Part shown: piece after piece, positions 32,500-52,422 of the stretch
How positions within the stretch are numbered: the stretch's first letter is position 1
Layout of the letters: every line of letters begins with the position of its first letter
Source: a virus
Taxonomy: Duplodnaviria; Caudoviricetes
IMG/VR virus record: IMGVR_UViG_3300035703_000126
Coordinates: 1-52,994 of that record
Length of the DNA stretch: 52,994 nucleotides
Strand: one strand, 5' to 3'
Notes under the pieces: generated by a model
The model's database searches: none
What the model saw: only the letters and a program-made list of their open reading frames with translations
Told to the model about the DNA's origin: nothing
Made by a program: the position numbers and the translations under genes

Positions 32500-34449
32500 A
32501 TGCCAGTCCGCTTTCTGGATTCGAGCGTCACGTCGCTTCTCAGTGCGCTGATGAGGGACAGCGGCGTGGATCTTGGCTCCCAGCCGCGATGGTCAAACTC
32601 AACGTCGTTTTACGGTTCTGATCGCTTGCCGATGGCGGCGCCACCTTCAAATGCAATCGCACCTCAGAACGATTATTCGCCGGAAGCACGACAGAGACGG
32701 GCGGCAGCCGCGCAGCAAATGGCTCTCCAGCAGATGGATATGGAGCTGCAGGCGGCGCGAATCGCCAACGCGCAGGCAGAAACAGCCCAGCGAGCGGCCC
32801 TGATGGCGCAGCCGAGAACTGGAGGTGGAGTCGGCGGATCAGCAGGAATGATGGCTGGTACGCAGAAGCCGATGACTCCGGCCGAGTACCGGACGATGTA
32901 CGACCGGGCGGTTGAGAAGCAGCAGTCACAGGCCAATCAACTGAGAGCACGACTGCGTGCTGGTCAGATCAGTCCGGAGATGATTAAGCAGCAGGGCTTC
33001 GATGTTCTTGAGCGTCCCGCAAACGATGAAGACGTAAACGCCGGGCAGGTTGATGCTATTCGCAATGGCGTAGCGTACCGCTACGACCTGTTTCCATTGG
33101 GCGGTGATGCTGCGATCAATCGACTGATGCAGGATGAATTGCGGGCGTATCAAAACTTCATCTCTGGAGGAAATCCAGAGGCCGTCAATCCTCCTGATAT
33201 CGTGAACCAGCCACAGCCTCCCGGCCAGCCGGGCGGCATTCAAGTTCCGCAACCGCCGGCTCCGCCGGGACCGCAGCCGCCTCCAGAGCAGGCTCAGTTT
33301 CAGCAGCGGCGGCAGGCCTGGCAGCAGATGGTCGAAGCAGCCGACGCGGAAGGAAAGGAGTTCACGCCGCAGCAGCAGGCGACGCTCAAGACGCTGGACC
33401 AGCAGGAAGCTCAAATCCTTAAAGACCCACGACTCAGCGGCACGGACCGCAACCGGGCGCTGCTGTTCATTCAGGAAGCCAGGGAGCGACTGACTCCCGA
33501 TCAGAAGAAGATGACCCCGCAGCGGGTGTATCAGGAAAAGGTTATGGAGTTGCCGGACGGCAACAAGGTCACGGTGAACCAGCACGGTCAGCCGGAGATC
33601 ATGATGCCGCCGGCGGACAGCGTGCAGAGACGCGAGCGGGAACTGGACTCGAACATCCGCAATTCCGCGATGGTCGAATGGCAGAAGCTGCTGGACCGTG
33701 GATTCGACGCGGCTCAGGCCACCGCGATCATCGAAGACTTGTTCAAGATTGAGCTGCCGCTTCAGATGCGGTCCGCCCCGCCGTTGCCTGCACCGACTCA
33801 GAGCCAGCCGGCGCCCGCACCGGCCGCGATGCCGGAATCATCTCCGACTGCACCTGGAATGCCGATTCGCCGGCAGACGCTGATGCGATCGGACATGAGC
33901 GGCGTGCCGATCGAAGTGGATCGCATGGCAGTTCAACAGCAGGGAGAAATGCCGCCGGATGTCGCACAGTACATCAACGAAATGATGCAGCGGCCGACTG
34001 CCGGCATTGGCGGTCCGCAGCCGGGCATGGCCCCCGTGATTACGGATGTCGAAGCGGCAATGCGTGCCCGGCCGGCTCCCGCGTCGATCGGAGGTCCGAT
34101 GGGAGTTCCGCAGTCCGCCGTGGAAAGCGCGGTCGGAATCAACCGCAGCGCGCCGATGCCGCCGGCTGGTGCGAGACCGGGAATGCTGAATGACGGCACG
34201 GACCCGTTCGCTCCGAAGACCGATCCTTACGCGAACATGCCGGCCGACCTGCAGGAACTCGGCCGCATGAAGGACACATTCAAGCAGTTCCGGGACGAAA
34301 CGCGGGACCGTCCAATCCGAAAAGCGGCGGCAGACCTGTTCAATCTGAAGAAGAAGATCGCGGCGGGGCAGAAGCTGACTCCGCAGGACATGCAGGTGCG
34401 CGACCGGGCCGTTGAGTTTCTCATGAATGAGGGAGTGCTGTCGCCATGA
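32500..34449 (+). CDS. ejection protein, Q/P-rich
   Basis: Low complexity; precedes the giant protein with ATGA coupling. Confidence 0.65.
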   Translation: MPVRFLDSSVTSLLSALMRDSGVDLGSQPRWSNSTSFYGSDRLPMAAPPSNAIAPQNDYSPEARQRRAAAAQQMALQQMDMELQAARIANAQAETAQRAALMAQPRTGGGVGGSAGMMAGTQKPMTPAEYRTMYDRAVEKQQSQANQLRARLRAGQISPEMIKQQGFDVLERPANDEDVNAGQVDAIRNGVAYRYDLFPLGGDAAINRLMQDELRAYQNFISGGNPEAVNPPDIVNQPQPPGQPGGIQVPQPPAPPGPQPPPEQAQFQQRRQAWQQMVEAADAEGKEFTPQQQATLKTLDQQEAQILKDPRLSGTDRNRALLFIQEARERLTPDQKKMTPQRVYQEKVMELPDGNKVTVNQHGQPEIMMPPADSVQRRERELDSNIRNSAMVEWQKLLDRGFDAAQATAIIEDLFKIELPLQMRSAPPLPAPTQSQPAPAPAAMPESSPTAPGMPIRRQTLMRSDMSGVPIEVDRMAVQQQGEMPPDVAQYINEMMQRPTAGIGGPQPGMAPVITDVEAAMRARPAPASIGGPMGVPQSAVESAVGINRSAPMPPAGARPGMLNDGTDPFAPKTDPYANMPADLQELGRMKDTFKQFRDETRDRPIRKAAADLFNLKKKIAAGQKLTPQDMQVRDRAVEFLMNEGVLSP

Positions 34450-37400
34450 GCAGGCTGAGTCTGTCCGGTCTGGCGGATCTGTATCCGGAACGACAGCAGG
34501 GGCAACCAGCCCGCGATTACCGGATGCAGCCGCAGCCGGGTGGCAGGCCGTTGTCCGTGGGTGGCTATGACCTCGTGTCGCCGGACATGCGTGACACGGC
34601 CGCGCAGGACGCCGCGATTGCCGAACAGGCTCGTCGCGCGGATGCACAGCAAAAGGAACTGGATCGACTGTCCTGGTGGGAGCGGTTCAAGAACATTGGG
34701 GCACGACTCGGCGCCGGCATGAACCCGGACGCTCAGGTGTCACCGGCGGAAATGCCGCTGCCCGATCCGCAGGCAGAAGCCGCGCGAATCATGGAAGAGC
34801 AGCGGAAGGAGCAGGTCCGGAAGTCGAGTCCGTACTACCAGCAGGCGTTGATCGAACTGCAGGCGGAAGACCGGCTGAAACGGCTTGATGCTCAGTACCA
34901 GCGTGAAGCGGATGAGCGGCTCAAGGGCGTCGGACTGCCGCGCATCGGTCTGCGTCCCGGCCAGCAGCCGCCCACGATGGGCCAGGCGATGGCGGAGGAG
35001 ATCGCTCAACGGACCCGCGAGGACCGGGCACGGGAGTCCGGCTATCAGTACGAGACCGGGGCACTGGCGGAAGACCCGTTTGGACGCACTCAGATGCGTT
35101 CCGGAACGCCCGGAGAGAGTCCGCAGTATCCTTTGCTGCGTGACATCGGCATGGGGCTGAGAAACGCTGGCGGTGCTCTCGGCTCTGTGGCGCTCCGGAT
35201 GTTCGGATCGGACGATCTGGCGAATCAGGCGCAGGCCTACATTGAAGGCCAGCGGATGCGTCAGGAGCAGGAACGAACCGGCGACCGATTTCCGTCCATG
35301 ACTCGTGCAGCGGCAGGAGCTACGGAGTCGGCGGCAACGCTTCTCGGAGCCAGTGCTGTCGGCGGGATGCCGGCCGTGATCGCCACCTACGGCGCGGAGG
35401 CCTTCGATCAGGGGCTGTACGACGCGAAGCAGGCCGGGCTGGTTGGAAACGACCAGTTGCGCTACGCAGCCGGCGAGGCGGCCATTGCGAGCCTTGTGTC
35501 GCCGATCATGGATCGACTCGGCATGTCCGGCGTTGAGAAGGCGGCGATGGCACAGCGCGTCGCCAATCGGACGATGCGGAATGCCTTCGGAAACCTGGCA
35601 AAGACGGAGGCCGGTGAATTTGGTCAGGAGCTTCTGGAGCTGTCGCTGTCGTCCGCATTGCAGGCGGAAACCGGCGTCGATCCGCAGGCACTGGAACTCA
35701 GCACGTTCATGCCGCGAGTGGCTGATACGGCTTTGACGACGATGCTGACAGTCGGCGCCGTCGAGTCCCCGAACATTGCAGCGGCAGTGGATCGGTTCAT
35801 CCGCGAGCCAAGCCGGAAGAACTACGCCGGCCTGCCGGAGGAAATCCGCGCGCCGCTGGGCGACACCGTGAAGTCCTCGGCGGACCGGCAGCGACTGGCC
35901 GAACAACTGATCGCGAATCAGACGCCGCCGCAAACGGAACCGCTTGAAACCGCTCGAAACCGCTCGAAACCGGAGGAAGCACTTCAGCCCGGCGTTACTT
36001 CGCCGCCGGGACCGTCCGCCGGGAGTCCTCAGCTACCGATGGGGACTCCCGGTGTCCAACCAGAAGATCAAGGCGTCCCGTCTCAGGTTCCAGTTCTCAG
36101 TCCCGGAGAGGAGGTGATCGTTGATGAAGAGCGGATGCAAAGGGGGCCGGAAGGGCGGCAAAGGGAAGTAGTCGCGCCACCGGTTCCCGATCCGACAGAG
36201 CAGGCCGGCGGCATCCCCGTCGCCGCCGAGCCTGCTGCTGCTCCTGCTGAAACAGCTCCCGCGCAATGGATGCTGACTCCGGAAGACACTGCGATCGCTG
36301 AGAGGGCTATTCGCGACGTGATCAGGGCTGGCAAGCCGCGCATCCAGGACGCGGATGTCGATGATCTGACCGGCAAGGTTCTCGATGTTGTCGCGACGCA
36401 GTTTTCTCCGGAGCGTGGGAACCTGCGAAACTACGCGCGGAAACTTGCGAAGAATGCCCGAACGACCTTCATGCGAGAGCGGCAGCGCGGTCCTGAGCAG
36501 ATGCCGGAAGGTGTTACCGATTCTGGTGCAGTCGATCCGGCGATCGAGGCGCAGATCAACGAACGCGCCCGGGCGGAAGGCATCGACATCAACGTGCCGG
36601 AAGTCCCCGATGTGCCGCAGGTCGGCAACGCGCCGCCACAGCCAGATCCCGGACAGGCGGCAACGGACATGCCGAAGATCAGGGCCAACAACGTATGGGT
36701 CGGACAATCCGGTCCCGTGCGGATCAACAGCACCAAAGGCGGACTGGTGACATTCAAACCCGTTGGCGCCGCAGGGGAACCGCAGACCCTTCCGGAGAAT
36801 GAGTTCCGCCAGCAGTACACTCCACGCGGAGCGACCCAGCCACCAGCCCAACCCGTCGAACCAGTCACGACTGAAAGACCGCTGTATGACCGAGCGGTTG
36901 ACTTTGCTGTCGGCAAAGGTGTCGTGAGCACTGGAATGCTGCAAAGGGAGTTTGGACTCGGATACACCGGCGCGGCACAACTGATCGACCAGATGACAGA
37001 CTCTGGCGTGATCGCCCCATCAACCGGAGCGCAGGAGCGAAAGGTATTGCTGACTTCAGCACCGCAGGCAGTCGCTCCACCAGCACAACCTTCCGTGCCG
37101 CCCACAGAGCAGCCGCAACAGGCAGGACTGCAAACGCCTTCCCCGCAACCGGTGGACACGATCGCCGGCCGGATGGATCTGACTGAGTTCGAGACGAAGG
37201 GGTACGCGCCGGAGCAGGTCACGCGGCAGGACTGGATCAACCTGCAGAGGGCTGAGCGTCGTCGGCTGGGGCAGCCGGAAGAATCCGGGACGCAGTACGC
37301 TCCGTTTGCTGACTACGAAGAGTTCCATCGCGACGCTGTCAGGCAGGCAGTCGCGCGCGGCGATGAAGTTGATCCCCAGGTTCTGGCGGACTATCCCGAT

Positions 37401-40400
37401 CTGGCTCCCGCGTCGTCGGCCGTCGAGCCGGAGAAGACGATCGGCCAGCAGGCAGAGCCGGAGTCACAGCCAACTCCGGCAATAAGCTTCGAGCAGTTCG
37501 CCGACGCGATGGAGCGATCTGAACGAGGGGCGAAGCGTGATGGATCACTGGTGTCATTCGGAGACCTCCGGCGAGAAACAGGCCTCAGCAAGCCGGACTT
37601 CGACGCAACCGTCCTGCGATTCAAAGCGGAGGGCAAGCTGAATCTGCACACCGACGACTTCCCCGGCAACAGAACTGCCGAGGAACGTGAGCGGTTCATC
37701 CCAACAAAGACAGAGCGCGGCGACACATACTTTCTTGGCGCGTCAATCAGCGAAACTGCGCGCGACGAACTGGCCAGGCAGCCGGCTGCCACTCCACAGG
37801 CCACACCGGAGGCGACTCCTGCGCCGCCCGCCGAATCGCCGCAGAAACCAGTGAAGCCGCGAACGCCGGGCAAGCCACTCAATCGCACGCAGAAAGATGC
37901 AGCCCTGCGGCATCACTTCACGCCTGGAAAAATTGTCCCGTCATACAGCGGACAGGATCGGGTGATCGCATTCAATCCGGGCGGCCCTGAGTCCACATGG
38001 AGCGTGGACGTGCAGGCTGTTGACGAAAGCGGTACTCCTATCGAGGGCGAGGTTGTTCGACGGCACGGCACGGAGCCGGACGCGAAGACGCTCCTGAAGG
38101 CCTACGATGATCTGGTGGCATCGCAGCAGGCAACCGCCCGGCCGACAGAGCCAGAGGCGAAGCCCGCCAGGAAGAGGAAGGAATCACCAGAGCGGGAACC
38201 ATACCGCAGGACAACTGACGCATCGCCGGAAGGGCGAGCGCTGCTGCGATCACAAACGGAAGCATATCGTGACAGAATCACTGAGCTTGAGCCTCGGCTT
38301 AAAGATGCCAGAAAACGTCTGGCCAACACGCGATCTAACGCACACAAGAAGCGAGGCGAAATTCAGACTGAGATCAACGAGATCGAAAACGAAATAGGCC
38401 GATGGAGACGCATGGAGCAAAAGGCGGCAGACGAGTACCGCCGTGCTGCAATTGAGGACGCGATGGAGGATCCGAAATCAGACCTGCATCGTCAGGCTGG
38501 TCTTCGCGAACTCGCCATGCTCGATTTTCGGGAGGCGGAACGGCGAGGTGCAGATGCCCGCGAGAAACGAGATCGAGGGTCGTATGACGCGGCCATGAAG
38601 CAGATGAGCAGCCTGGAAGACAGAATCCGTGCGATGGATCACGATCTTGAAGCTGGGTTTTCTCAGATCGCCATTGAAAGGCACGGGGATGCTCTGACTC
38701 CAAACGAGATCGCATCAGTCGCATCGCTGTCAAAATATGACTTCAACGTGGATTCGCGAGGCACTCCGGAATCAGTCATCGACAGTCGCGCCGAAGAACA
38801 GATTGCCGGTCGCAAGAACAACGTGAGCCTGGCGGATATCAGCGGGCTTCCTGAGGATGATCGGCAACGGCTGGAAAAGCAGATCGAGGATGACCTGCGA
38901 AAGAAGGAGTGGCACGAAACCGTTACGCGAGTGCGGAATGAGGCGTCTGAGATTGCCAGAACCGCACGAGAGGAATCACAGAAGCGGAAAGCGAAGGAGG
39001 CGCAGGAAGCTGCTGAGGAGAAAAGAAAGTCAGATATTGCAGAGGCCAAAGAGAAGTATGCGCAGCGCAAGTCAAGCTCCACCGAACTGCGATACTGGAA
39101 GCAACTGAAGGAACGTGCCAGCAAGATCAAGACACAGAAGGATGTGTCAGGAAAGTATGGCGACGATGCTGTGAAAGGGGACGCCGTCGGCGAGACCTGG
39201 CTAATTTACGCCGCCGGAAAGGGGGATTACGTCCTGATTCACCGTCCATCCGGCATTGGAGTGACGCACGCCACGAATCCGAGCAACGCTAAACAGCTCA
39301 TTTTGATGCTGGAAGACGCCGGCATTGATATGTCGAAGTACGAAACGGCCGACTCTATCCCGGCAGATGTCGCGAAGCTCGCCGGGCAGATCGTTCGCGC
39401 ATGGGATAATGAGGACTTCCAGCAGATCACCGACGATGGGAAGCGTGGCGATATTTTGTCGCGAGTCCAGAAGCCTGATGTTGGGGTGAAGTTCGATATC
39501 GAAGTCGATGCGGCTGATGTTGAGAGTGCGAAGAAGATTGGAAGTAAATCTGCAGAGCAGCGACTGCGAGAGTTTGTCCGCGAGGTTCCGGAGTTCGGCT
39601 ACAACCCCGTCTTCACGGTGGATGACAACAAAAGACTGGTCTTCAAGGATGGTTTCAAGTTTGCGCTGAACCCGGAATTATTCGGGATCGACGCCGACAT
39701 TCTGGAGCCGGGATTTCGCGTTGCCGTCAATCTGGAAGACATTGGCATCGCGCGGCCGACTGCCGCCGAAGTCGTGAAGGATGTGCTGAGCCGCGAATTC
39801 AAAGTGACCAAGAGCGGTCCATCCGTGTTCGCCGTCAAGCCGCTGGATAAGCCCGATGGTCCGGCTGTCGTGGTTCGACAGGGCAGCGGAGAAGAATGGA
39901 TCGCCGGAACCGGATCGGACGCTCCGCACTACGCACGAGTCGAACAACTCCTGAAGGGCATCCCGTGGCGGGAAAGCGAGCAGGTTGCAAAGAACGACAA
40001 GGCGGCCGACGCCGACGCACAAGAGTCGCTTCCGCCAGTTGTCGCCGCTCCATACAAGGATGACTTCGCAAGGATTCTGCCAGTTTTAGACCGTCAGGTC
40101 AGGGCGGAAATCAGCCCGAATAAACAGAAGACTATTGCCATCAGCCACATGGATGGCGAGCCGCCGGCAATTCAGCGGGCTATTGCAGAACGCCTGCAGC
40201 AAATTGCTCCGGATGCGGTTCGGAGTGCCATCGCTCAGCCAAAGTCTGTTCCGATTGGCATGATGGCTCATTTCAGGGCGGTCACCACTGAGCTTGACTC
40301 TGAACGACCTGGTGGATCATCGGCGGTCGGAATGCCGGCGAAATCATCGAAGCCGGTTCCCGCTGTGCCACGGGACATGCCGCTGTTGTTGCCGCCGGCC

Positions 40401-43400
40401 GGAGACACCGGGAAGCCTGTGGCGATCCGCACCATCATGAATGCTCTGGAGCAGGCGGTATCCCTGCTCGGCAATGAAGTGCCGATTCGCGTCGGAAAAA
40501 TGTCGCAACGAACGGCACTCGGCATCTTCAAGGTTCACGATGAAGTCGCGCGCATCCGAGAAGCCAACGACCTTGAAACGGCCGCTCATGAAATGGGACA
40601 CGCCATCGACAAGTTGATCAATGGCTGGCCTAAGGGTGGACCGTGGAAAACGCCGCGAGTGCAAAAGCTGGTGCAGGATGAACTGACAGCAATCGGCCGA
40701 TCCCTCTACGTCGATACCGCGCCAACCGGAGGATACAAGCGCGAAGGCTGGGCGGAGTTTGCCCGGCTGTGGCTGACTGATCCGGAGTCGGCCGCGAAAT
40801 TTGCCCCACATACGTCGGAGTGGTATCGAGACACATTTGAGAAGGCGTATCCGAAAGCCGCTGCGGCTCTGCGGGAAGTGCAAGGCATGATTACGAAATG
40901 GAGAGAGCAGGGAGCGAAAGCACGACAGAGTACGGCGATCATCGACACCGGCAGTGTTCCGCAGAGAGTTGAGCGCATTAAAAAGTGGGCAAAGCACGCC
41001 GTCAGCATGGAAGCCCATATCGAGATGCTGGAGCCGCTGTGGGGTTTGGCCAGAGAAGCCGAGAAGCGAACTGGCAGGGAGCTGGCTGCGACAGACGATC
41101 CATACGCTATCGCGGATGCCTTGCGGATGGTTCATCATGCGCGAGTCGAGACATGGGTTCGGCACGGCATGACCGACCTGGCCGGAATGCCGACAGGAGT
41201 GAAACCGCTCAGTGACGTCGGAAAGCTGATTCCAGAACAAGAGCGGAACGACTTTGTGCTGTATTTGTGGGCGAGACGGGCACTGGCCTTGATTCTCGAT
41301 CCCCGTGGCCCGCGAAATCCCGGCATGTCGCTCAACGAAGCGGAATACCTCATCGCCGAGCTTGATAACCCGCGATTCCGGGAAGCGGCGCAGATCGTGT
41401 ACGACTGGAATGATGGCGTTCTGGATTACGCGGCTTCTGCCAGTCCAGTGTTCGCTGATGTTGTTCAACGAATCCGTGCGCGTGATCCCGGCGCATACAT
41501 TCCTCTTGCCCGATACTTCCGGGAACTCGATGAGATTTACAGCCGGAGCGGTGGCGGCAACGACATGATGGGCACGTTGATGGGCAAGTTGCGAGGGTCC
41601 GGCCGGGAAATCAAAGACCCGATTCCGCAGATGATCGCCAACGCCACAAAGATGGCGCACGCGGCGCATGACCGCATGATTCTGGACGCGATTCAAAAGC
41701 TGTCCGCGAACGTGCAGGGGCTGGGGAAGTACATCGAGAAAGTGCCGCGCGATAAAGTTCCGGCGGCGGCCGTGTCCGTCGAGGAACTTCTGCGGACACT
41801 GGAAAAGAAACTGTCGGAGCAGGAAATCGACATGACACTGACTCGTTACGACGAGCCAGTTGAGAAAGAAGACCTTCAGGATCTGATTGGCGAGACAGTC
41901 ACGTTCTTTACGACGGCAATCAATCCGTCAGGTCCGTATCCGATCATGCCGATGTATGACGCGACAACGAAGAAGATTGAGTGGTTCTATCTCAACGGCA
42001 ACCTGTATCACGCACTTGGCGCCATCGAGATGGCGGGGCTTCCAATGATTGGAGGGTTCAATCTACTGGCTCCGCTGGCCGCATTGAATCGACTGCGGAA
42101 AGCGGGAACTGTCGGCTTGCGAGCGGCATTCCAGTTGTTCACAAACCCGACTCGCGATCTTCAGACACTGCTTCAGAACACGCAGTCGCGGGCGACTCTA
42201 CCTAAAGTCGCATGGGAGTACGCACGCCAGACTCTAGGTGCCGCATGGAATCTCCTGCCAGGAACCCAGCCGACATCGGCAATGCAGTTCTGGAGAAACG
42301 CGGGCGGGCATGTCGCGCAGATGCTTGGCGAAGATACAGCACGCACACGAGAGTTAGGCAGTGAGGTGTTCGGTAAGAAGTTCAGCCGGCGACTGCTGCC
42401 GTCGAACTGGTGGAGCAACGTCAAAGACGCATACGACATTTACAAGGACATCGTCCAGATTCCGGAAGCAACAGCCCGCGCCACTGAGGTGCAGTTGCTG
42501 ATGGACGAAATGGGCATCAAACCTGGGGACCGCATCACGCTGGAGCAATCCCTGCGGCTGCTGACGGCGGGCAAGAAGGTTACGGTGGACTTCAGCGCCG
42601 CCGGCGAGTTTGCGCGGGTCTGGAATCAGCTCGCTCCGTTTTACAACGTCGCCATTCAGGGACCGCGTTCTATGGTGCGAGCGGCGCAGAAGAACCCGTT
42701 TGTTTTCACCGTGCGACTGGCGCAGGTGGCTGCACTGTCCGCGCTGTTGTGGTGGCGGAATAAGGATGAGGAATGGTATCGCAAGCTGAACACACGGCTG
42801 AAGACGATGTACTGGAGCTTTCGATATGGCGATCAGGTCATACTGCTTCCCAAAGCATTCGAGAACGGTGTCGGAGTGGCCGGCTTTGTTGAGTCCATGC
42901 TGGATCAGCAGTACGGACAGAATCCTGAGGCCGTGACGGAGTGGTTTCACCAGTTTATGGAAACTGCCACCCCGAACTACATACCGGGCGTTGCCGATGA
43001 GGTTCTGGCTCAGGCGATGAATGAAGACCTGTTCTGGAAGACGCCGATTGAGTCGCCGGAATTGCAGCGCATGCCGCGTCATGAGCGATTTAATGAGTAC
43101 ACGTCAGGCGTGGCAAAGTGGCTCGGCAAAACCATGAAGTGGTCGCCAGCTCGCATTGATCACGCTTTGCGCGGCATTGCGGGACCAATGGCTGGAGATG
43201 TGACGAGAACACTTGATGAGATTGTCGGAGTCAGCACGAAGCGAACGAGAGAGTGGGAGCCGGCAGACCTTCCGGTGATCGGTAAGGCGTTTCAACGTGG
43301 CGGAATCCACGGAACCCGCACGGCGAACATTGACAGGCTGTATGAGCGGCGAGCGGAAATGAACCTGCGGTCAAACAGTAAGGAGAACCCGGAAACGCCA

Positions 43401-43796
43401 CAGCAGCGACAGCAACGGCTGATGTTGAATGATGCCGCAGAGGCGGTGTCGGATATCTATCAGGCGCGGCGACAAATGGAAAAGACAGAAGATCGCGGCA
43501 AGGCGACTGATGAAGCGGATCGTATCGCGACTGATGCGCTGAAACGCCTTGAGTCCGGGACGCTGCCGCCGGAGCGCATCGCCATCCTGGTCGAGAACGC
43601 CATCTCTGAGGGGAAGTCCGAGAAGGCTCAGCAGGAGTCCCGCGAGGCACTGCTGATCCTCAAGCAGTCAGGGCTGTCCGCGCGGGAAATCACACAGGCC
43701 TACACGAAGAAGAAGCGAGCGGACAAGGAGCGTGTTCTGCCGTCGAACCTCAACAGGCTGAGGCTGCGGCTGTCGCGAACGAAGGCCGAAGAATGA
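34446..43796 (+). CDS. giant (3116 aa) polyvalent ejection protein with sigma70-r2-like, FtsK-gamma, wHTH, zincin HExxH and LPD38-like domains
   Basis: FSPERGNLRNYARKLAKN; PLYDRAVDF...LQREFGLGY..AA.LIDQM; AAHEMGHAID; C-terminal W..DEEWY...YW...LPK...SPARIDHALRG. Confidence 0.8.
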   Translation: MSRLSLSGLADLYPERQQGQPARDYRMQPQPGGRPLSVGGYDLVSPDMRDTAAQDAAIAEQARRADAQQKELDRLSWWERFKNIGARLGAGMNPDAQVSPAEMPLPDPQAEAARIMEEQRKEQVRKSSPYYQQALIELQAEDRLKRLDAQYQREADERLKGVGLPRIGLRPGQQPPTMGQAMAEEIAQRTREDRARESGYQYETGALAEDPFGRTQMRSGTPGESPQYPLLRDIGMGLRNAGGALGSVALRMFGSDDLANQAQAYIEGQRMRQEQERTGDRFPSMTRAAAGATESAATLLGASAVGGMPAVIATYGAEAFDQGLYDAKQAGLVGNDQLRYAAGEAAIASLVSPIMDRLGMSGVEKAAMAQRVANRTMRNAFGNLAKTEAGEFGQELLELSLSSALQAETGVDPQALELSTFMPRVADTALTTMLTVGAVESPNIAAAVDRFIREPSRKNYAGLPEEIRAPLGDTVKSSADRQRLAEQLIANQTPPQTEPLETARNRSKPEEALQPGVTSPPGPSAGSPQLPMGTPGVQPEDQGVPSQVPVLSPGEEVIVDEERMQRGPEGRQREVVAPPVPDPTEQAGGIPVAAEPAAAPAETAPAQWMLTPEDTAIAERAIRDVIRAGKPRIQDADVDDLTGKVLDVVATQFSPERGNLRNYARKLAKNARTTFMRERQRGPEQMPEGVTDSGAVDPAIEAQINERARAEGIDINVPEVPDVPQVGNAPPQPDPGQAATDMPKIRANNVWVGQSGPVRINSTKGGLVTFKPVGAAGEPQTLPENEFRQQYTPRGATQPPAQPVEPVTTERPLYDRAVDFAVGKGVVSTGMLQREFGLGYTGAAQLIDQMTDSGVIAPSTGAQERKVLLTSAPQAVAPPAQPSVPPTEQPQQAGLQTPSPQPVDTIAGRMDLTEFETKGYAPEQVTRQDWINLQRAERRRLGQPEESGTQYAPFADYEEFHRDAVRQAVARGDEVDPQVLADYPDLAPASSAVEPEKTIGQQAEPESQPTPAISFEQFADAMERSERGAKRDGSLVSFGDLRRETGLSKPDFDATVLRFKAEGKLNLHTDDFPGNRTAEERERFIPTKTERGDTYFLGASISETARDELARQPAATPQATPEATPAPPAESPQKPVKPRTPGKPLNRTQKDAALRHHFTPGKIVPSYSGQDRVIAFNPGGPESTWSVDVQAVDESGTPIEGEVVRRHGTEPDAKTLLKAYDDLVASQQATARPTEPEAKPARKRKESPEREPYRRTTDASPEGRALLRSQTEAYRDRITELEPRLKDARKRLANTRSNAHKKRGEIQTEINEIENEIGRWRRMEQKAADEYRRAAIEDAMEDPKSDLHRQAGLRELAMLDFREAERRGADAREKRDRGSYDAAMKQMSSLEDRIRAMDHDLEAGFSQIAIERHGDALTPNEIASVASLSKYDFNVDSRGTPESVIDSRAEEQIAGRKNNVSLADISGLPEDDRQRLEKQIEDDLRKKEWHETVTRVRNEASEIARTAREESQKRKAKEAQEAAEEKRKSDIAEAKEKYAQRKSSSTELRYWKQLKERASKIKTQKDVSGKYGDDAVKGDAVGETWLIYAAGKGDYVLIHRPSGIGVTHATNPSNAKQLILMLEDAGIDMSKYETADSIPADVAKLAGQIVRAWDNEDFQQITDDGKRGDILSRVQKPDVGVKFDIEVDAADVESAKKIGSKSAEQRLREFVREVPEFGYNPVFTVDDNKRLVFKDGFKFALNPELFGIDADILEPGFRVAVNLEDIGIARPTAAEVVKDVLSREFKVTKSGPSVFAVKPLDKPDGPAVVVRQGSGEEWIAGTGSDAPHYARVEQLLKGIPWRESEQVAKNDKAADADAQESLPPVVAAPYKDDFARILPVLDRQVRAEISPNKQKTIAISHMDGEPPAIQRAIAERLQQIAPDAVRSAIAQPKSVPIGMMAHFRAVTTELDSERPGGSSAVGMPAKSSKPVPAVPRDMPLLLPPAGDTGKPVAIRTIMNALEQAVSLLGNEVPIRVGKMSQRTALGIFKVHDEVARIREANDLETAAHEMGHAIDKLINGWPKGGPWKTPRVQKLVQDELTAIGRSLYVDTAPTGGYKREGWAEFARLWLTDPESAAKFAPHTSEWYRDTFEKAYPKAAAALREVQGMITKWREQGAKARQSTAIIDTGSVPQRVERIKKWAKHAVSMEAHIEMLEPLWGLAREAEKRTGRELAATDDPYAIADALRMVHHARVETWVRHGMTDLAGMPTGVKPLSDVGKLIPEQERNDFVLYLWARRALALILDPRGPRNPGMSLNEAEYLIAELDNPRFREAAQIVYDWNDGVLDYAASASPVFADVVQRIRARDPGAYIPLARYFRELDEIYSRSGGGNDMMGTLMGKLRGSGREIKDPIPQMIANATKMAHAAHDRMILDAIQKLSANVQGLGKYIEKVPRDKVPAAAVSVEELLRTLEKKLSEQEIDMTLTRYDEPVEKEDLQDLIGETVTFFTTAINPSGPYPIMPMYDATTKKIEWFYLNGNLYHALGAIEMAGLPMIGGFNLLAPLAALNRLRKAGTVGLRAAFQLFTNPTRDLQTLLQNTQSRATLPKVAWEYARQTLGAAWNLLPGTQPTSAMQFWRNAGGHVAQMLGEDTARTRELGSEVFGKKFSRRLLPSNWWSNVKDAYDIYKDIVQIPEATARATEVQLLMDEMGIKPGDRITLEQSLRLLTAGKKVTVDFSAAGEFARVWNQLAPFYNVAIQGPRSMVRAAQKNPFVFTVRLAQVAALSALLWWRNKDEEWYRKLNTRLKTMYWSFRYGDQVILLPKAFENGVGVAGFVESMLDQQYGQNPEAVTEWFHQFMETATPNYIPGVADEVLAQAMNEDLFWKTPIESPELQRMPRHERFNEYTSGVAKWLGKTMKWSPARIDHALRGIAGPMAGDVTRTLDEIVGVSTKRTREWEPADLPVIGKAFQRGGIHGTRTANIDRLYERRAEMNLRSNSKENPETPQQRQQRLMLNDAAEAVSDIYQARRQMEKTEDRGKATDEADRIATDALKRLESGTLPPERIAILVENAISEGKSEKAQQESREALLILKQSGLSAREITQAYTKKKRADKERVLPSNLNRLRLRLSRTKAEE
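35941..35970 (+). repeat. 3 x 10-bp tandem repeat CGCT(T/C)GAAAC inside the giant gene
   Basis: cgcttgaaac cgctcgaaac cgctcgaaac. Confidence 0.85.
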
Positions 43797-44701: not shown

Positions 44702-45457
44702 ATGCCCGACGCGGTCATCTACAGCCGCTTCTCGCCGCGGCCGGAAAAGGCCGGCGATCAGGAACTCAAAGCCCGCGCCGAAGACGCAGCCACGATCCAG
44801 CAGCAGATCGACGCCTGCCGGCGATACTGCGACATGAAGGGCTTCACAGTCACTCAGGTCATTCGCGATCCGGAAACATCAGCCCGGCACACGAAGCTCT
44901 TCGAGCGACCCGGCGGATCAGCACTGCTCGAACTGCCGCCAGGCACGCACATCGTCGCCGCCAAGCTCGACAGGCTCTTCCGTAACACGATCGACGGACT
45001 GTCCTCGATGTCCACGCTGCGGCGGAATGGACTCACGCTGCACCTCGCCGATCAGGGTGGATGCACGATCGACACCAACACCGCCATCGGGGAACTCATC
45101 ACCACGATGCTGCTCAGCGTCGCCGCCTTCGAGCCGCGACAGACAGCCGAACGGGTCAGCAAGGGAATGCGCTACCGCCAGAACACGCTTCGCCAGCGCA
45201 TGTCCGCCAACGTCCCGTTCGGATTCAGGCTCTGCCCGGACACCAATCTACTGATCGACGACGAACACGAACGGCAGCTCATGAAACGCTGCCATGCCCT
45301 TCGCAAGCAGGGCTTCTCCCTTCGGGAGATCATCGCAATCCTCGTCAGGGACGGCGACGAGAAATGCCGCGGGAAACAGTGGCACCCCAACACGATCCAG
45401 CGGCTGATCGAAGCGCACGAGAAGCATCTGGTCCCAGCAGGAGCAGCATCGGCATGA
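44702..45457 (+). CDS. serine recombinase (resolvase family with recombinase-domain tail)
   Basis: YSRFS catalytic Ser, RPG, KLDRLFRN, TAIGEL, ERVSKGM, VPFGF. Confidence 0.9.
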   Translation: MPDAVIYSRFSPRPEKAGDQELKARAEDAATIQQQIDACRRYCDMKGFTVTQVIRDPETSARHTKLFERPGGSALLELPPGTHIVAAKLDRLFRNTIDGLSSMSTLRRNGLTLHLADQGGCTIDTNTAIGELITTMLLSVAAFEPRQTAERVSKGMRYRQNTLRQRMSANVPFGFRLCPDTNLLIDDEHERQLMKRCHALRKQGFSLREIIAILVRDGDEKCRGKQWHPNTIQRLIEAHEKHLVPAGAASA

Positions 45458-46377: not shown

Positions 46378-46917
46378 TTACTTCACCCCGACCTCACGCA
46401 GTGCCTGCTGAGCTGTCGGACCGCCCGACTGCCACATCTGCGGCGCCCACGTTCTTCCGCGATACCGGATCGTCGGATACGACTCCGCCGGCTCACCCTT
46501 CACAACCCGCACCGTGTAGCCCAGCGCTCGGAAATCCGCGACCGCCAGATCGCACGCCAGGCAGCCATCCATCGACAACACCTCGATCACCGGCTTCTCG
46601 AACTCCGACGCCGAACGCAGAGGACGAGGATCGACACGAATCTGCGGCAACTCAGGCATGTTCCCGAAACGGTTTTCGGCAACACCGGAGCACCCACAGC
46701 CAGCCTTCCCGCAGCCGCATTCGCAGGTGTCAGCCGCCGGTGAACCGCCCCCCTCGTTGACGATCCGCCGCGTCTCCTTCACCTCGACCTGCAACTGGAT
46801 CGGGATCACCGTCGCAGCCACCGCGCCACCACCGCCCTCCGGCGGATTCACTCGCGGGATGAACGCCCCGCCGTTACAGCCGGCAAGAGCCAGCACCATC
46901 AGACTGATCCATCGCAT
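46378..46917 (-). CDS. lipoprotein with Cys cluster and thioredoxin/glutaredoxin-like CxxC domain
   Basis: Lipobox LAGC; CECGCGKAGCGC; VLSMDGCLAC...SYPTI. Confidence 0.7.
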   Translation of the reverse strand: MRWISLMVLALAGCNGGAFIPRVNPPEGGGGAVAATVIPIQLQVEVKETRRIVNEGGGSPAADTCECGCGKAGCGCSGVAENRFGNMPELPQIRVDPRPLRSASEFEKPVIEVLSMDGCLACDLAVADFRALGYTVRVVKGEPAESYPTIRYRGRTWAPQMWQSGGPTAQQALREVGVK

Positions 46918-47102
46918 GATTCGTCACTCCCTTTGAGTTTGTGCGCTACGGCATGGTACTCATTAACGATCTGGTCCAACTGTTCATACACATTGGCCGA
47001 CCAGATCAACACGCAACTGCAATCCGGATGCCTCGCACACTCAGCACGCACAAGTTGCCCCGCAATGATTGCATTAACAATCTGCTCTCCAACGGATGGC
47101 AT
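46899..47102 (-). CDS. hypothetical protein
   Basis: Short ORF in the leftward operon; lower GC than neighbours. Confidence 0.5.
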   Translation of the reverse strand: MPSVGEQIVNAIIAGQLVRAECARHPDCSCVLIWSANVYEQLDQIVNEYHAVAHKLKGSDESCDGSV

Positions 47103-47159
47103 GTCATTGCCCTTCCCTCACACTATCCGCCCGTAAATCCGGCTCCGGATATCGTCTAG

Positions 47160-47540
47160 TTAGGTAAACCGAAAAAACTCCAGCACATAGCCAGCTTCCG
47201 CCTGCTCTTCTTGTTTGGCGTACTTGCCGCTTTTGAGCTTCCTCAGATACACGACGGACGGACTCTCTGCTTTCCAGAAAGGAGCTACAACCCGCAGTAG
47301 CTTTACTGTTTCATCGCCGTCGGAAAACTCCAAAATGCCTTCTCTCGTGTCCCACTCGTCACCAAATTTCTCTTCGAGCTTATCCTGAAAAAGCGCAACT
47401 GTTGCAATTTCCCATTTTTTCCTACGCACCTCAGCTTCGATAGCAGCCTCTACGGCGGCGTCGCGAAGCCGTTCCACGAGCTGTTCGTCTACCTCGAAAC
47501 TGACTCCACGCATGCTATACACGCTTCGTTTTTTGTTCAC
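47160..47540 (-). CDS. cassette-borne hypothetical protein
   Basis: Its stop TAA is the TTA of the cassette core site; lower GC. Confidence 0.7.
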   Translation of the reverse strand: MNKKRSVYSMRGVSFEVDEQLVERLRDAAVEAAIEAEVRRKKWEIATVALFQDKLEEKFGDEWDTREGILEFSDGDETVKLLRVVAPFWKAESPSVVYLRKLKSGKYAKQEEQAEAGYVLEFFRFT

Positions 47541-47628
47541 GGCACGCCTAACTAACGGTTGCAGCCGAGCCGCCTCATAGCTGCATGTGAGTCAAAGCCG
47601 TGGGCGGCGGCACAGCTGAACCTGGGCG
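47160..47628 (+). mobile_element. integron-type gene cassette (469 bp) with antisense ORF
   Basis: Starts at G^TTAGGT (47159-47165) and ends in an attC whose R'' (GCCTAAC) complements that core. Confidence 0.8.
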
Positions 47629-47634
47629 TTCACA
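47546..47634 (+). repeat. attC recombination site
   Basis: R'' GCCTAAC, 5 nt, L'' GTTGCAGC, GCCGCC/GGCGGC stem, L' GCTGAAC, 6 nt, GTT; one extra base in L''. Confidence 0.85.
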
Positions 47635-48142
47635 GAATCCACGGCGCCACGGTCACGTTCGGCAGGCGAGCCAGATCGCCAGGCGTCGTCTCCGCTGGAA
47701 CACCGAACTTCGGAACTCCGACCAGCATCAACGCGAACGCTGCCAGCTCCGAACAGAACCACCGCTCGGCGTGCAGGTCAGTTTTCAACTTCCACGCCCG
47801 GCTGATCCGACGCCACACCCACGAAAACGATCGCACGAACTGACGCGGCGAAGCGTACTCCTCACCGATCCGATGCAGCAGGAACCGCTTGATCTCCTGC
47901 CGCTGCTCGCCATCCAGCCCGTCCACCCGCCCGATCGCACAGTGACCGCGCCACTGCTGCCAGACATACGGCCGAACGATCCGCACGCCCTTGCCTTCGA
48001 GCGCCTCCACGATCCACAACTGGCCCTCGACCTCGACGAACACGCCGACGTGCGACCACTCCGACCCCGACCGCAGCCGGATCAGCCGCGACCACAGCCG
48101 CCTTCCGCTGAACAACGCCAGATCGCCCGTCCGTGGCTCCAT
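47630..48142 (-). CDS. permuted NlpC/P60 papain-like amidase (YiiX/YebB-like)
   Basis: GDLALFSG, WSHVGV, FCSEL and TPGDL. Confidence 0.85.
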   Translation of the reverse strand: MEPRTGDLALFSGRRLWSRLIRLRSGSEWSHVGVFVEVEGQLWIVEALEGKGVRIVRPYVWQQWRGHCAIGRVDGLDGEQRQEIKRFLLHRIGEEYASPRQFVRSFSWVWRRISRAWKLKTDLHAERWFCSELAAFALMLVGVPKFGVPAETTPGDLARLPNVTVAPWIL

Positions 48143-48157
48143 TGGTCTGCTCCGTCG

Positions 48158-48529
48158 TTATCGAAACCGCTGGTTCAACTCTTCTATGCGAGCACGCAGA
48201 TGCTGCACGTCGCCGATGATCGTGTTGATTGCGGCCACCACATCACTGCATAGCTGCGCCGGGACAGCATCATTTGGTCCGTCGGCGGCTGTCTTAGCTG
48301 GAACCAGAAATGGCCCCAACAGAAACATCAGATCGCTGAGAGCATTGTGTGCCGCGCCAACGCAGTCGTGGGCTACAGCCAGTCGGTCTTCGATCGACGT
48401 GATTTCTCGCCCGGTGGCGACCGCTGGCCCACCATTGCAATGTGCGTTCATTCGCGCAAGCCCCTCTTCGCCTCGATCCGAGAACCCAACACTCATTCCG
48501 CCCATACGAACCATTTCAACCTGATTCAC
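48158..48529 (-). CDS. hypothetical protein flanked by 10-bp direct repeats
   Basis: TCCGTCGTTA at 48151-48160 and 48555-48564. Confidence 0.6.
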   Translation of the reverse strand: MNQVEMVRMGGMSVGFSDRGEEGLARMNAHCNGGPAVATGREITSIEDRLAVAHDCVGAAHNALSDLMFLLGPFLVPAKTAADGPNDAVPAQLCSDVVAAINTIIGDVQHLRARIEELNQRFR

Positions 48530-52349: not shown

Positions 52350-52422
52350 CGGGCTGTAGTTCAGGTGGAGCAGAACATGACCAGACGTGGTCAAGGCGTG
52401 CGTTCGAGTCGCACCAGTCCGG
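52350..52422 (+). ncRNA. tRNA-like RNA with a 6-nt (or 4-nt) anticodon loop
   Basis: Acceptor CGGGCTG/CAGTCCG; TA; D-arm GTTC..GAAC; TGACC-AGACGT-GGTCA; T-arm GTGCG-TTCGAGT-CGCAC. Confidence 0.75.

What the first reader, a model, noticed from the sequence alone, without database searches (positions are those of the whole stretch)
47159..47634. Complete integron gene cassette in a phage operon, antisense ORF, no integrase in the window
Seen: a canonical attC layout (R'' GCCTAAC, 5 nt, 8-nt L'' with one unpaired base, central stem, 7-nt L', 6 nt, GTT). 469 bp upstream of that GTT lies G^TTAGGT, which complements R'' as expected if the unit excises as a circle. The only ORF is inverted relative to attC, so it reads with the phage's leftward operon, and its stop codon is the TTA of the core site. 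The reconstructed empty site is ctaG^TTcaca, right at the stop of the YiiX-like gene. Known: IntI can insert attC cassettes at non-att GNT-type sites. Inference: the phage gains genes by borrowing a host integron integrase, and antisense cassettes carrying phage-like genes may be a phage-adapted cassette pool.
Basis: partly seen in the sequence, partly recalled or inferred. Interest (0 to 1): 0.88.

Follow-up and report, generated by a model that had tools for sequence, protein, structure and literature searches.

The report
Integron gene cassette inside a phage
A small gene carrying a genuine integron recombination site sits inside a phage operon at a spot that is empty in related phages, so this phage very likely gained it through a bacterial integron integrase; integron parts in phages have been reported before.

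Summary
The attC-like site is real. A box scan finds only this site in the window (expected 0.05 per shuffled window). Its boxes recur in at least 179 sites of 120 bacterial loci, many in arrays beside integron integrases. Two home-made covariance models score it at 44.6 and 32.0 bits; the next hits score 10.8 and 9.7 bits.

Related phages from four other samples lack the region. Their junction falls exactly on the G^TT at the attC 3' end, next to the stop of the YiiX-like gene.

The missing block is 693 bp (46935/6-47627/8), not 469 bp. It also holds a 224-bp low-GC piece with an orphan 67-codon ORF.

The inner boundary G^TTAGGT at 47159 is still supported:
- it is a rare motif;
- it gives 6 of 7 pairs with R'';
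- it overlaps the ORF's stop codon;
- a foreign contig's similarity ends 3 nt past it.

Best reading: a single cassette with an antisense gene, captured at a GTT secondary (attG-type) site. The extra 224 bp was either already there or was carried along.

Cassettes outside integrons, and integron parts in phages, are published. This is a new member of a known kind, with good natural junction evidence. The gene's function is unknown.

The parts
46935..47628 (.). Block absent from related phages. It is 693 bp, either 46935-47627 or 46936-47628, because one G is ambiguous. GC is 0.527 against 0.645 and 0.654 in the flanks.
   Evidence: contigs of runs X2, X3 and X4 (three studies) join 46934 to 47628. 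JGI contig L129 aligns up to 46933 and from 47628.
46936..47159 (.). Extra 224-bp low-GC piece (GC 0.522) of unknown origin. It lies inside the inserted block but outside the canonical cassette. No attC was found in it.
   Evidence: Neither covariance model hits here at E<=10. A GTT lies at 46937-46939, 2 nt inside the left breakpoint.
46899..47102 (-). ORF67, an orphan. Its last about 11 codons are encoded by phage flank DNA beyond the block. It overlaps the start of the 179-codon gene.
   Evidence: No homolog other than itself. No Pfam or PHROG match.
47128..47162 (.). 35-nt stretch that also occurs (3 mismatches) in a 542-nt contig of run X4, with different DNA on both sides. The similarity ends 3 nt past the G^TT at 47159.
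   Evidence: tables 7 and 8, record 16. Single copy in the window. A 20-nt part of it is absent from viral contigs.
47159..47165 (+). G^TTAGGT, the inferred left boundary of the cassette. It would be the R' core of the circular form.
   Evidence: It makes 6 of 7 pairs with R''. GTTAGGT is the fourth commonest R' among 179 natural sites (11 of 179).
47160..47628 (+). Canonical cassette, 469 bp, from TT to G.
   Evidence: The size lies within the 226-1929 bp range of 73 natural cassettes.
47160..47540 (-). Cassette gene, antisense to the attC. It has 126 codons from GTG 47540, or 117 from ATG 47513 (P0001). Predicted fold is a long helix plus a four-stranded sheet. Function unknown.
   Evidence: Four homologs at 50-79% identity. 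27 representative clusters. No Pfam or PHROG match. Model pLDDT 79.7. No PDB fold match at E<=0.001.
47546..47634 (+). attC site. R'' 47546-52, L'' 47558-65 (bulged G), L' 47615-21, G^TT 47628-30. The present R' is GTTCACA, which is non-canonical because the bases from TT onward belong to the phage.
   Evidence: Model R1 gives 44.6 bits, E 1.6e-7. Model R2 gives 32.0 bits, E 2.8e-6. The present R' makes 3 of 7 pairs with R''; 2 of 176 natural sites are that low.
47630..48142 (-). Upstream phage gene, a Peptidase_C92 (YaeF/YiiX-like) protein. Its stop TGA overlaps the GTT target.
46378..46917 (-). Downstream phage gene (179 codons, no family). Its ribosome-binding region abuts the left breakpoint.

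Best explanation
The segment 47160-47628 is a true integron gene cassette. It consists of a 117/126-codon gene of unknown function plus a functional-looking attC.

The attC belongs to a large class with the layout CTAAC-N5-GTTNCAGC...GCTGAAC-N6-GTT. Complete integrons of many environmental bacteria use this class.

How it arrived (inferred). A host integron integrase, not encoded in the contig, recombined the folded bottom strand of the attC with a GTT. That GTT lies directly after the stop codon of the phage's YiiX-like gene. It is a secondary (attG-type, GWT) site. The insertion left the attC with a foreign R' (GTTCACA).

Expression (inferred). The GTT is on the + strand, so the cassette sits head-on to the phage's leftward operon. 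Its gene is coded antisense to the attC, so the operon reads it.

The unsettled part. Compared with the nearest relatives, the phage gained 693 bp. That is the 469-bp cassette plus 224 bp carrying orphan ORF67. Two routes fit:
(b) The cassette had first entered a GTT in another genome and was later re-excised with an upstream GTT (46937). It then entered the phage as a roughly 691-bp TT...G circle.
I hold (a) and (b) about equally likely.

Shown: attC identity, the right junction, the rarity of the core motif, and the absence of IntI and of a second attC. Inferred: IntI action, the order of events, and expression.
For: 1. Geometry. There is 1 strict hit in the window against 0.053 expected.

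2. The site's own boxes, searched as a 22-nt pattern.
My estimate of chance hits is about 2, assuming a uniform base composition.
- Many hits are in arrays: 11 in L008, 5 each in L028 and L051.
- The positions left free in the pattern come out as canonical attC. R' is GTTAGGC in 65, GTTAGAC in 25, GTTGGGC in 14 and GTTAGGT in 11 of 179. R'' is GCCTAAC in 83 of 179. The bulge is G in 140 of 179. The second spacer reads ..GGGC. The window site shares GCCTAAC, the bulged G and GGGC.

3. These arrays belong to integrons.
- 5 of 5 genomes holding such arrays have an IntI above the TIGR02249 cut-off.
- attCs lie within about 1.5 kb of intI in L124, L126, L127 and L128.

4. Covariance models.
- R1 was built from 110 pattern-chosen sites. 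The window site scores 44.6 bits; the next hit scores 10.8.
- R2 was built from 58 array attCs that do not match the pattern (58 of 118). The window site scores 32.0 bits, E 2.8e-6; the next hit scores 9.7.

5. Right junction.
- Contigs in X2, X3 and X4, about 95-97% identical in the flanks, join 46934 to 47628 with one ambiguous G.
- L129 (88-93% identical) has the same empty slot with GTT intact.
- So the junction is the G^TT cleavage point.

6. Right R'. GTTCACA makes 3 of 7 pairs with R''. Of 176 natural sites, 159 make 5 or more. The 47159 core makes 6 of 7.

7. Left core. The motif is rare, it coincides with the ORF's stop codon, and the similarity of X4 record 16 ends at 47162.

8. Low GC of the block.

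9. Literature.
- IntI inserts cassettes at GWT genome sites. Excision can use the insertion point or nearby sites. This is from the Loot et al. preprint 10.1101/2022.09.11.507474, where I read passages and section 30.
- Phage attCs are recombined by IntI1. This is from Qi et al. 2023, PMC9892861, where I read the abstract and section 3.4.
Against: - The left breakpoint of the indel actually observed (46934/5) is not a G^TT junction. The block begins G|AGTTTG. Route (b) therefore needs two extra spacer bases in the ancestor, and route (a) needs an unseen ORF67-only ancestor.
- No relative with the 224-bp piece alone was found.
- No IntI, no host and no donor integron are known. The nearest natural attC is only 76% identical.
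- The genomic contexts of the four ORF homologs were not seen.
- Both covariance models are my own. R1 is circular for its fixed positions. R2's training sites were themselves found with R1. IntegronFinder's model was not available, and Rfam gave no attC hit.
- The authors of IntegronFinder treat isolated attC hits as ambiguous, with 0.03-0.72 false positives per Mb (PMC4889954, passages).
- The hairpin's folding energy is ordinary.
- Antisense genes are the minority in natural arrays: 8 of 73, most of them ambiguous calls.
Confidence: 0.8

Rival explanations
1. The attC is real, but no integrase ever acted on the phage. Under this rival, the 693-bp block was copied from integron-bearing or cassette-bearing DNA. 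The route would be illegitimate recombination, or homologous exchange with another phage. The phage slot is simply a moron hot spot.
For: - The indel is 693 bp and its left end is not G^TT.
- X5 carries a different 325-nt filling in the same slot, between 46933 and 47632, so the slot varies by other routes too.
- Both parts of the block share low GC, 0.522 and 0.505.
- Qi et al. 2023 (PMC9892861, section 3.4) suggest illegitimate recombination as a route for phage CALINs.
Against: - The right breakpoint coincides to the base with the attC cleavage point G^TT. A random crossover would hit it rarely; my estimate is about 1 in 20-40.
- The attC is complete up to its G and stops there.
- Exchange between related phages would only move the IntI event back to an earlier phage that had the same YiiX-like flank.
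Confidence: 0.13
2. An ordinary phage moron. On this view the upstream hairpin resembles an attC only by chance, or it serves another role such as RNA structure or an attenuator.
For: - The fold energy is not exceptional.
- It is a single site with no integrase.
- Across a scan of very many windows, some chance box matches are expected. One search gives 0.053 per window for the bare geometry.
Against: - The match goes beyond geometry. It includes the exact L boxes, the bulge identity and the spacer of a class with at least 179 natural members, many in arrays.
- 5 of 5 genomes checked with such arrays carry IntI.
- The models give 44.6 and 32.0 bits, against 10.8 or less for anything else in 106 kb of two strands.
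- There is no terminator-like T-run and no promoter-like site.
Confidence: 0.04
3. An assembly chimera. On this view an integron cassette from a bacterium was mis-joined into a phage contig.
For: The source is a metagenome assembly. The block differs in GC from its flanks.
Against: - Run X1 holds all sampled words of 46700-48100 in an independent Logan assembly.
- Both flanks are syntenic with relatives, and the breakpoints fall in a roughly 20-nt intergenic spacer without damaging either gene.
- ORF67 reads across the left junction.
Confidence: 0.02

Closest known systems
Integron gene cassettes and attC (59-base element) sites of chromosomal and mobile integrons
   Same: - The R''/L''/L'/R' box order, the 5- and 6-nt spacers and the bulged base in L''.
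- The AAC/GTT triplets.
- A cassette size of 469 bp and a start of TTAGGT.
- The boxes are identical to those in arrays next to intI.
   Different: - It stands alone in a phage operon, with no attI, no intI and no second attC.
- The present R' is GTTCACA.
- The gene is antisense to the attC. That is the minority arrangement in the arrays I checked (8 of 73).
SALIN / attG insertion: single cassettes inserted by IntI at genomic 5'-GWT-3' sites (Loot et al., Nat Microbiol 2024; preprint 10.1101/2022.09.11.507474, of which I read passages and section 30)
   Same: - A single attC without an integrase.
- A GTT target that is intact in empty relatives.
- A junction between G and TT.
- Possible re-excision at a nearby site that carries flanking DNA, which would account for the extra 224 bp.
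   Different: - The target is a phage genome, not a bacterial chromosome.
- The observed indel is larger than the cassette, and its left end is 2 nt away from a GTT.
- No experiment was done.
Integrons and CALINs in phage genomes (Qi et al. 2023, PMC9892861; I read the abstract and section 3.4)
   Same: attC sites and cassettes carried by phages. Methylase cassettes are reported there, and L133 here is an example.
   Different: - That survey kept only clusters of two or more attC sites.
- In the parts I read, it gave no empty-site comparison.
- Here there is one cassette, with junctions defined against four to five relatives.
Cassettes at secondary sites in plasmids, for example aadB in an RSF1010 derivative (Recchia & Hall 1995; Recchia et al. 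1994). I saw these only as entries in the reference list of PMC4889954; what they contain is recalled.
   Same: Precise insertion of one cassette outside an integron, at a short G-T-type site. This leaves an attC with a foreign R'.
   Different: Those are plasmids and resistance genes in clinical bacteria. This is an uncultivated phage with a gene of unknown function.
Phage morons (extra genes inserted between conserved phage genes)
   Same: Low-GC DNA lies exactly between two conserved genes. The slot also holds other fillings in relatives.
   Different: There is no promoter-like or terminator-like signal of its own. One boundary is a site-specific recombination point.

Membership tests
attC site (integron cassette recombination site) | R'' RYYYAAC and R' starting GTT, with L''/L' inverted repeats between them and spacers of about 5 and 6 nt | tested here: met
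   GCCTAAC, 5 nt, GTTGCAGC ... GCTGAAC, 6 nt, GTT. It is the only such site in the window. Expected 0.053 per shuffle.
attC site (integron cassette recombination site) | An extrahelical base in L'' and a bottom-strand hairpin | tested here: met
   fold: 4 + 6 + 6 pairs with one bulge and one mismatch. The bulged base has the same position and identity (top-strand G) as in 140 of 179 natural sites. The fold energy itself is not unusual (z -0.84).
attC site (integron cassette recombination site) | A match to a covariance model of attC sites | tested here: met
   My own models: R1 gives 44.6 bits. R2, from pattern-independent array sites, gives 32.0 bits. IntegronFinder's model was not available. 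Rfam gave no attC hit.
attC site (integron cassette recombination site) | R' GTTRRRY complementary to R'' | tested here: inconclusive
   The present R' GTTCACA makes 3 of 7 pairs and has 1 of 4 RRRY positions. That is as expected after insertion at a non-att site. With the 47159 core (GTTAGGT) it makes 6 of 7.
attC site (integron cassette recombination site) | Recombination by an integron integrase | not testable with these tools
   This needs an attC x attI conjugation assay of the kind used in PMC9892861.
Complete integron or CALIN | intI nearby, or at least two attC sites within about 4 kb | tested here: not met
   No TIGR02249 or PF00589 match in the contig. No second attC at E<=10 above 10.8 bits. 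The contig is 68% complete.
SALIN / attG-type insertion | A single cassette flanked by target G on the left and target TT on the right, with the GWT site intact in empty genomes | tested here: inconclusive
   The right side is met: relatives have GTT and the junction is at G^TT. The left side is met only at the inner site 47159. The observed indel ends 224 bp further left, 2 nt from a GTT.
Phage moron | A foreign-composition gene between conserved genes, with its own promoter and terminator | tested here: inconclusive
   Composition and position are met. There are 0 promoter-like sites, and no terminator-like site at the block's ends. This was a simple consensus scan only.

The most novel reading that the evidence does not exclude
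The 693-bp block is a natural record of two successive integrase events. First, a cassette entered a GTT in some other genome, at the inner G^TTAGGT (47159). Second, it was re-excised with an upstream GTT (46937), so that it took about 222 bp of non-cassette DNA (ORF67) with it. The enlarged TT...G circle then entered a GTT inside a phage operon.

That would be field evidence that 'excision outside the insertion point' enlarges cassettes with new flanking DNA. It would also show that phages draw on this pool. The draw would favour antisense-coded genes that their own operons can read; L133's antisense methylase cassette is a second case.
Probability: 0.25. Interest if true: 0.75.

Novelty: new member of a known kind. 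Interest (0 to 1): 0.55.

Why it matters
This shows, with base-level junctions from natural populations, that a phage can pick up a single integron cassette at a plain GTT site inside an operon. That adds phages to the targets of the attG route, which was described for bacterial chromosomes. It also links two gene pools that are usually studied apart: integron cassettes and phage accessory genes.

The attC class defined here has conserved L boxes. It occurs in contigs labelled as several phyla, and in 11 IMG/VR contigs. It gives a simple handle for finding more such events.

The gene itself is of unknown function, so no phenotype can be claimed.

Tried and rejected
Searches that found nothing.
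- Rfam scan of 46500-48500: only two chance-level hits.
- Relatives of the ORF in viral contigs, genome contigs and metagenome contigs: none.
- Relatives of the ORF in INPHARED phages and PLSDB plasmids by tblastn, and of the block by blastn in phages: none.
- Relatives of the ORF in the 140 fetched loci, 0.9 Mb: none.
- The YiiX-like gene as a query in viral contigs: none.
- The PAPS-reductase-like gene found L001-L003, which share only that gene and not the slot.

Ideas rejected.
- A second attC or an attI in the 224-bp piece: no model hit, no box pattern, and the fold is ordinary.
- ORF67 as the N-terminus of an IntI: no TIGR02249 candidate in six frames.
- The whole 693 bp as one canonical cassette: its start would make only 1 of 7 pairs with R''.
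- Contig counts from the listing of cluster members were ambiguous and are not used.

Function of the ORF.
- Pfam and PHROGs: none.
- PDB fold search: 0 hits at E<=0.001.
- Atlas: only weak structural neighbours, TM 0.51-0.53, which are viral hypothetical clusters.
- The C-termini of distant homologs vary, so 'stop codon inside the core site' is not a family-wide rule.

Other limits.
- Donor or host: the nearest natural attC is 76% identical, so no donor can be named.
Parts of the stretch without cover are not evidence.
Supplementary Tables S1 and S2 of PMC9892861, which list phage attC sites and boundaries, may bear on novelty.
- Whether phage-borne single cassettes are in print rests on searches only.

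Full report
WHAT IS THERE. The window is one whole IMG/VR viral contig of 52,994 bp, with estimated completeness 68%. It carries a large terminase. Between about 46.3 and 50.5 kb lies a leftward block of accessory genes. These include a PAPS-reductase-like gene, a papain-like peptidase and a Peptidase_C92/YiiX-like protein.

The finding's coordinates are exact:
- R'' GCCTAAC at 47546-52.
- Spacer TAACG.
- L'' GTTGCAGC at 47558-65.
- An imperfect central stem.
- L' GCTGAAC at 47615-21.
- Spacer CTGGGC.
- GTT at 47628-30.

G^TTAGGT lies at 47159-65, 469 bp to the left. Between the two lies a minus-strand ORF, 47160-47540. It has 126 codons from GTG and 117 from ATG 47513. Its stop codon is the TTA of the core motif.

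IS THE attC REAL? Four lines of evidence say yes.

(i) A scan written from the textbook geometry alone finds this one site on both strands. The mean in 150 dinucleotide-preserving shuffles is 0.053.

(ii) I turned the site's own boxes into a pattern with 22 fixed bases and scanned one genome per GTDB species.
My estimate for chance is about 2.
- Many hits form arrays with 250-1900 bp spacing.
- At the positions the pattern left free, the sites show the attC signature. R' is GTTAGGC in 65, GTTAGAC in 25, GTTGGGC in 14 and GTTAGGT in 11 of 179. R'' is GCCTAAC in 83 of 179. The bulge is G in 140 of 179. The second spacer ends GGGC.
- The window site has the commonest state at each of those positions.

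(iii) All 5 of 5 genomes that I checked with such arrays encode an integron integrase above the curated TIGR02249 cut-off. attCs lie within about 1.5 kb of intI in four of the five intI loci.

(iv) Two covariance models agree.
- R1 was built from 110 of 138 non-redundant pattern-chosen sites. It scores the window site at 44.6 bits, E 1.6e-7. The next hit in the window scores 10.8 bits. R1 is circular for the fixed positions.
- To reduce that circularity I built R2 from the 58 of 118 array attCs that do not match the pattern. Many of these carry compensating changes in both L boxes. They were, however, originally found with R1.
- R2 gives 32.0 bits, E 2.8e-6. The next hit scores 9.7 bits.

Against: the folding energy is ordinary. 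Rfam gave no attC hit. IntegronFinder's authors regard isolated hits as ambiguous (PMC4889954, passages).

THE JUNCTIONS. One search for sequencing runs found eight partial holders besides the probable source. I laid four of them, from four studies.

Contigs of X2, X3 and X4 are about 95-97% identical to the flanks. Each joins 46934 directly to 47628, skipping 693 bp, with one ambiguous G. A JGI contig, L129, is 88-93% identical. It has the same empty slot with one extra spacer base and the GTT intact.

So the right breakpoint is the G^TT cleavage point of the attC, to the base. The bases from TT onward (TTCACAG) are phage DNA. This explains why the present R' (GTTCACA) makes only 3 of 7 pairs with R''. 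Of 176 natural sites, 159 make five or more.

The block also includes 224 bp (46936-47159, GC 0.522). This piece carries the start and most of an orphan 67-codon ORF. X5 has a different 325-nt filling in the same slot, so the slot is variable.

THE INNER BOUNDARY. The G^TTAGGT at 47159 still looks like a true cassette end, for five reasons:
- GTTAGGY occurs only 4 times in 106 kb of two strands.
- It makes 6 of 7 pairs with R''.
- It is a common natural R' and cassette start.
- It overlaps the gene's stop codon.
- A 542-nt contig in X4 shares 35 nt (47128-47162, 3 mismatches) with different DNA on both sides. Its similarity ends 3 nt after the G.

HOW IT LIKELY HAPPENED. IntI inserts cassettes at genomic 5'-GWT-3' sites. 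[quoted passage not shown] 2024, seen only as a reference-list entry). Two routes fit.

(a) The 224-bp piece was already in the slot, and the cassette entered at its terminal G followed by TTCACAG.

(b) The cassette first entered a GTT in another genome. It was then re-excised with the GTT at 46937 and entered the phage as a roughly 691-bp circle. Route (b) explains the single indel and the shared low GC. It needs two more spacer bases in the ancestor than in X2-X4. L129 shows that this spacer does vary.

No integrase, tyrosine recombinase or second attC lies in the contig. The enzyme must therefore come from a host that remains unknown.

THE GENE. It has no Pfam or PHROG family. It has four homologs at 50-79% identity and 27 representative clusters among 1.84 billion proteins. 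The predicted fold is a long helix plus a four-stranded sheet, with pLDDT 79.7 for the best model only. There is no PDB match at E<=0.001, and only weak Atlas neighbours among viral hypothetical proteins.

It is antisense to the attC. In 73 cassettes of eight natural arrays, my longest-ORF call gave 62 sense, 8 antisense (mostly near-ties) and 3 with no ORF.

WIDER CONTEXT. The same pattern hits 11 IMG/VR contigs. Seven of them carry 2-12 attCs and four carry a single one.

One of the single-site contigs, L133, is clearly a phage, with portal and terminase genes. Its single attC is preceded by an antisense C5 DNA methylase (PF00145, E 2.6e-37). That gene ends on a G^TTAGCC core and starts a few bases from R''. 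It is co-directional with its neighbours.

Qi et al. 2023 (PMC9892861, abstract and section 3.4) reported integrons and CALINs with two or more attCs in 21 phages. They showed IntI1 recombination of five phage attCs. The kind is therefore known. The new elements here are the single cassette, the natural empty sites and the composite block.

VERDICT. This is a genuine integron cassette captured by a phage at a GTT secondary site (confidence 0.8). The origin of the adjoining 224 bp is unresolved.

Noticed in passing
L133:6930-7765 (IMG/VR contig, 9.4 kb): A phage contig (portal, terminase) has a single attC of the same class. Next to it is an antisense C5 DNA methylase gene that ends on a G^TTAGCC core. 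The gene is co-directional with its neighbours. This is a second 'antisense cassette in a phage operon'.
   Followed up: partly
L130-L140 (11 IMG/VR contigs): The same attC pattern occurs in 11 viral contigs. L132 (4.5 kb) is almost wholly an array of about 12 attCs, so it is either an integron array filed as viral or one carried by a virus. L137 and L140 have single attCs with non-canonical R' (GTTCTAC, GTTACTC).
   Followed up: partly
window 46933-47632, run X5: A relative in a lagoon metagenome has a different 325-nt filling in the same intergenic slot. The slot is therefore a hot spot for gene turnover. The 325 letters were not shown.
   Followed up: no
window 47128-47162: A 35-nt stretch containing a small palindrome (TCCGG CT CCGGA) recurs in an unrelated 542-nt contig of run X4. 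It is single copy in the window. A 20-nt part of it is absent from IMG/VR. Its nature is unknown.
   Followed up: partly
L004-L123 (GTDB contigs): One attC class with invariant L boxes (GTTNCAGC / GCTGAAC) occurs in contigs labelled Acidobacteriota, Gemmatimonadota, Gammaproteobacteria, Cyanobacteria, Chloroflexi, Verrucomicrobiota and others. Within arrays, variant boxes change on both sides together (for example CATCCAGC with GCTGATG).
   Followed up: partly
L126 (G003:C33:102366-106313): In this integron, intI and the attCs are on the same strand with the array downstream. This is the 'inverted integrase' layout.
   Followed up: no
window 34446-43796 (+), 44702-45457 (+), 52350-52422 (+): Three other features of the window: a 3116-codon ORF; a small serine recombinase (Resolvase domain, E 2.9e-23); and a tRNA-like gene whose anticodon ARAGORN could not assign.
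   Followed up: no
run X8: A run labelled with a single organism ('organism A'), not a metagenome, holds 6% of the words of 46700-48100. It could point to a host or a prophage relative.
   Followed up: no
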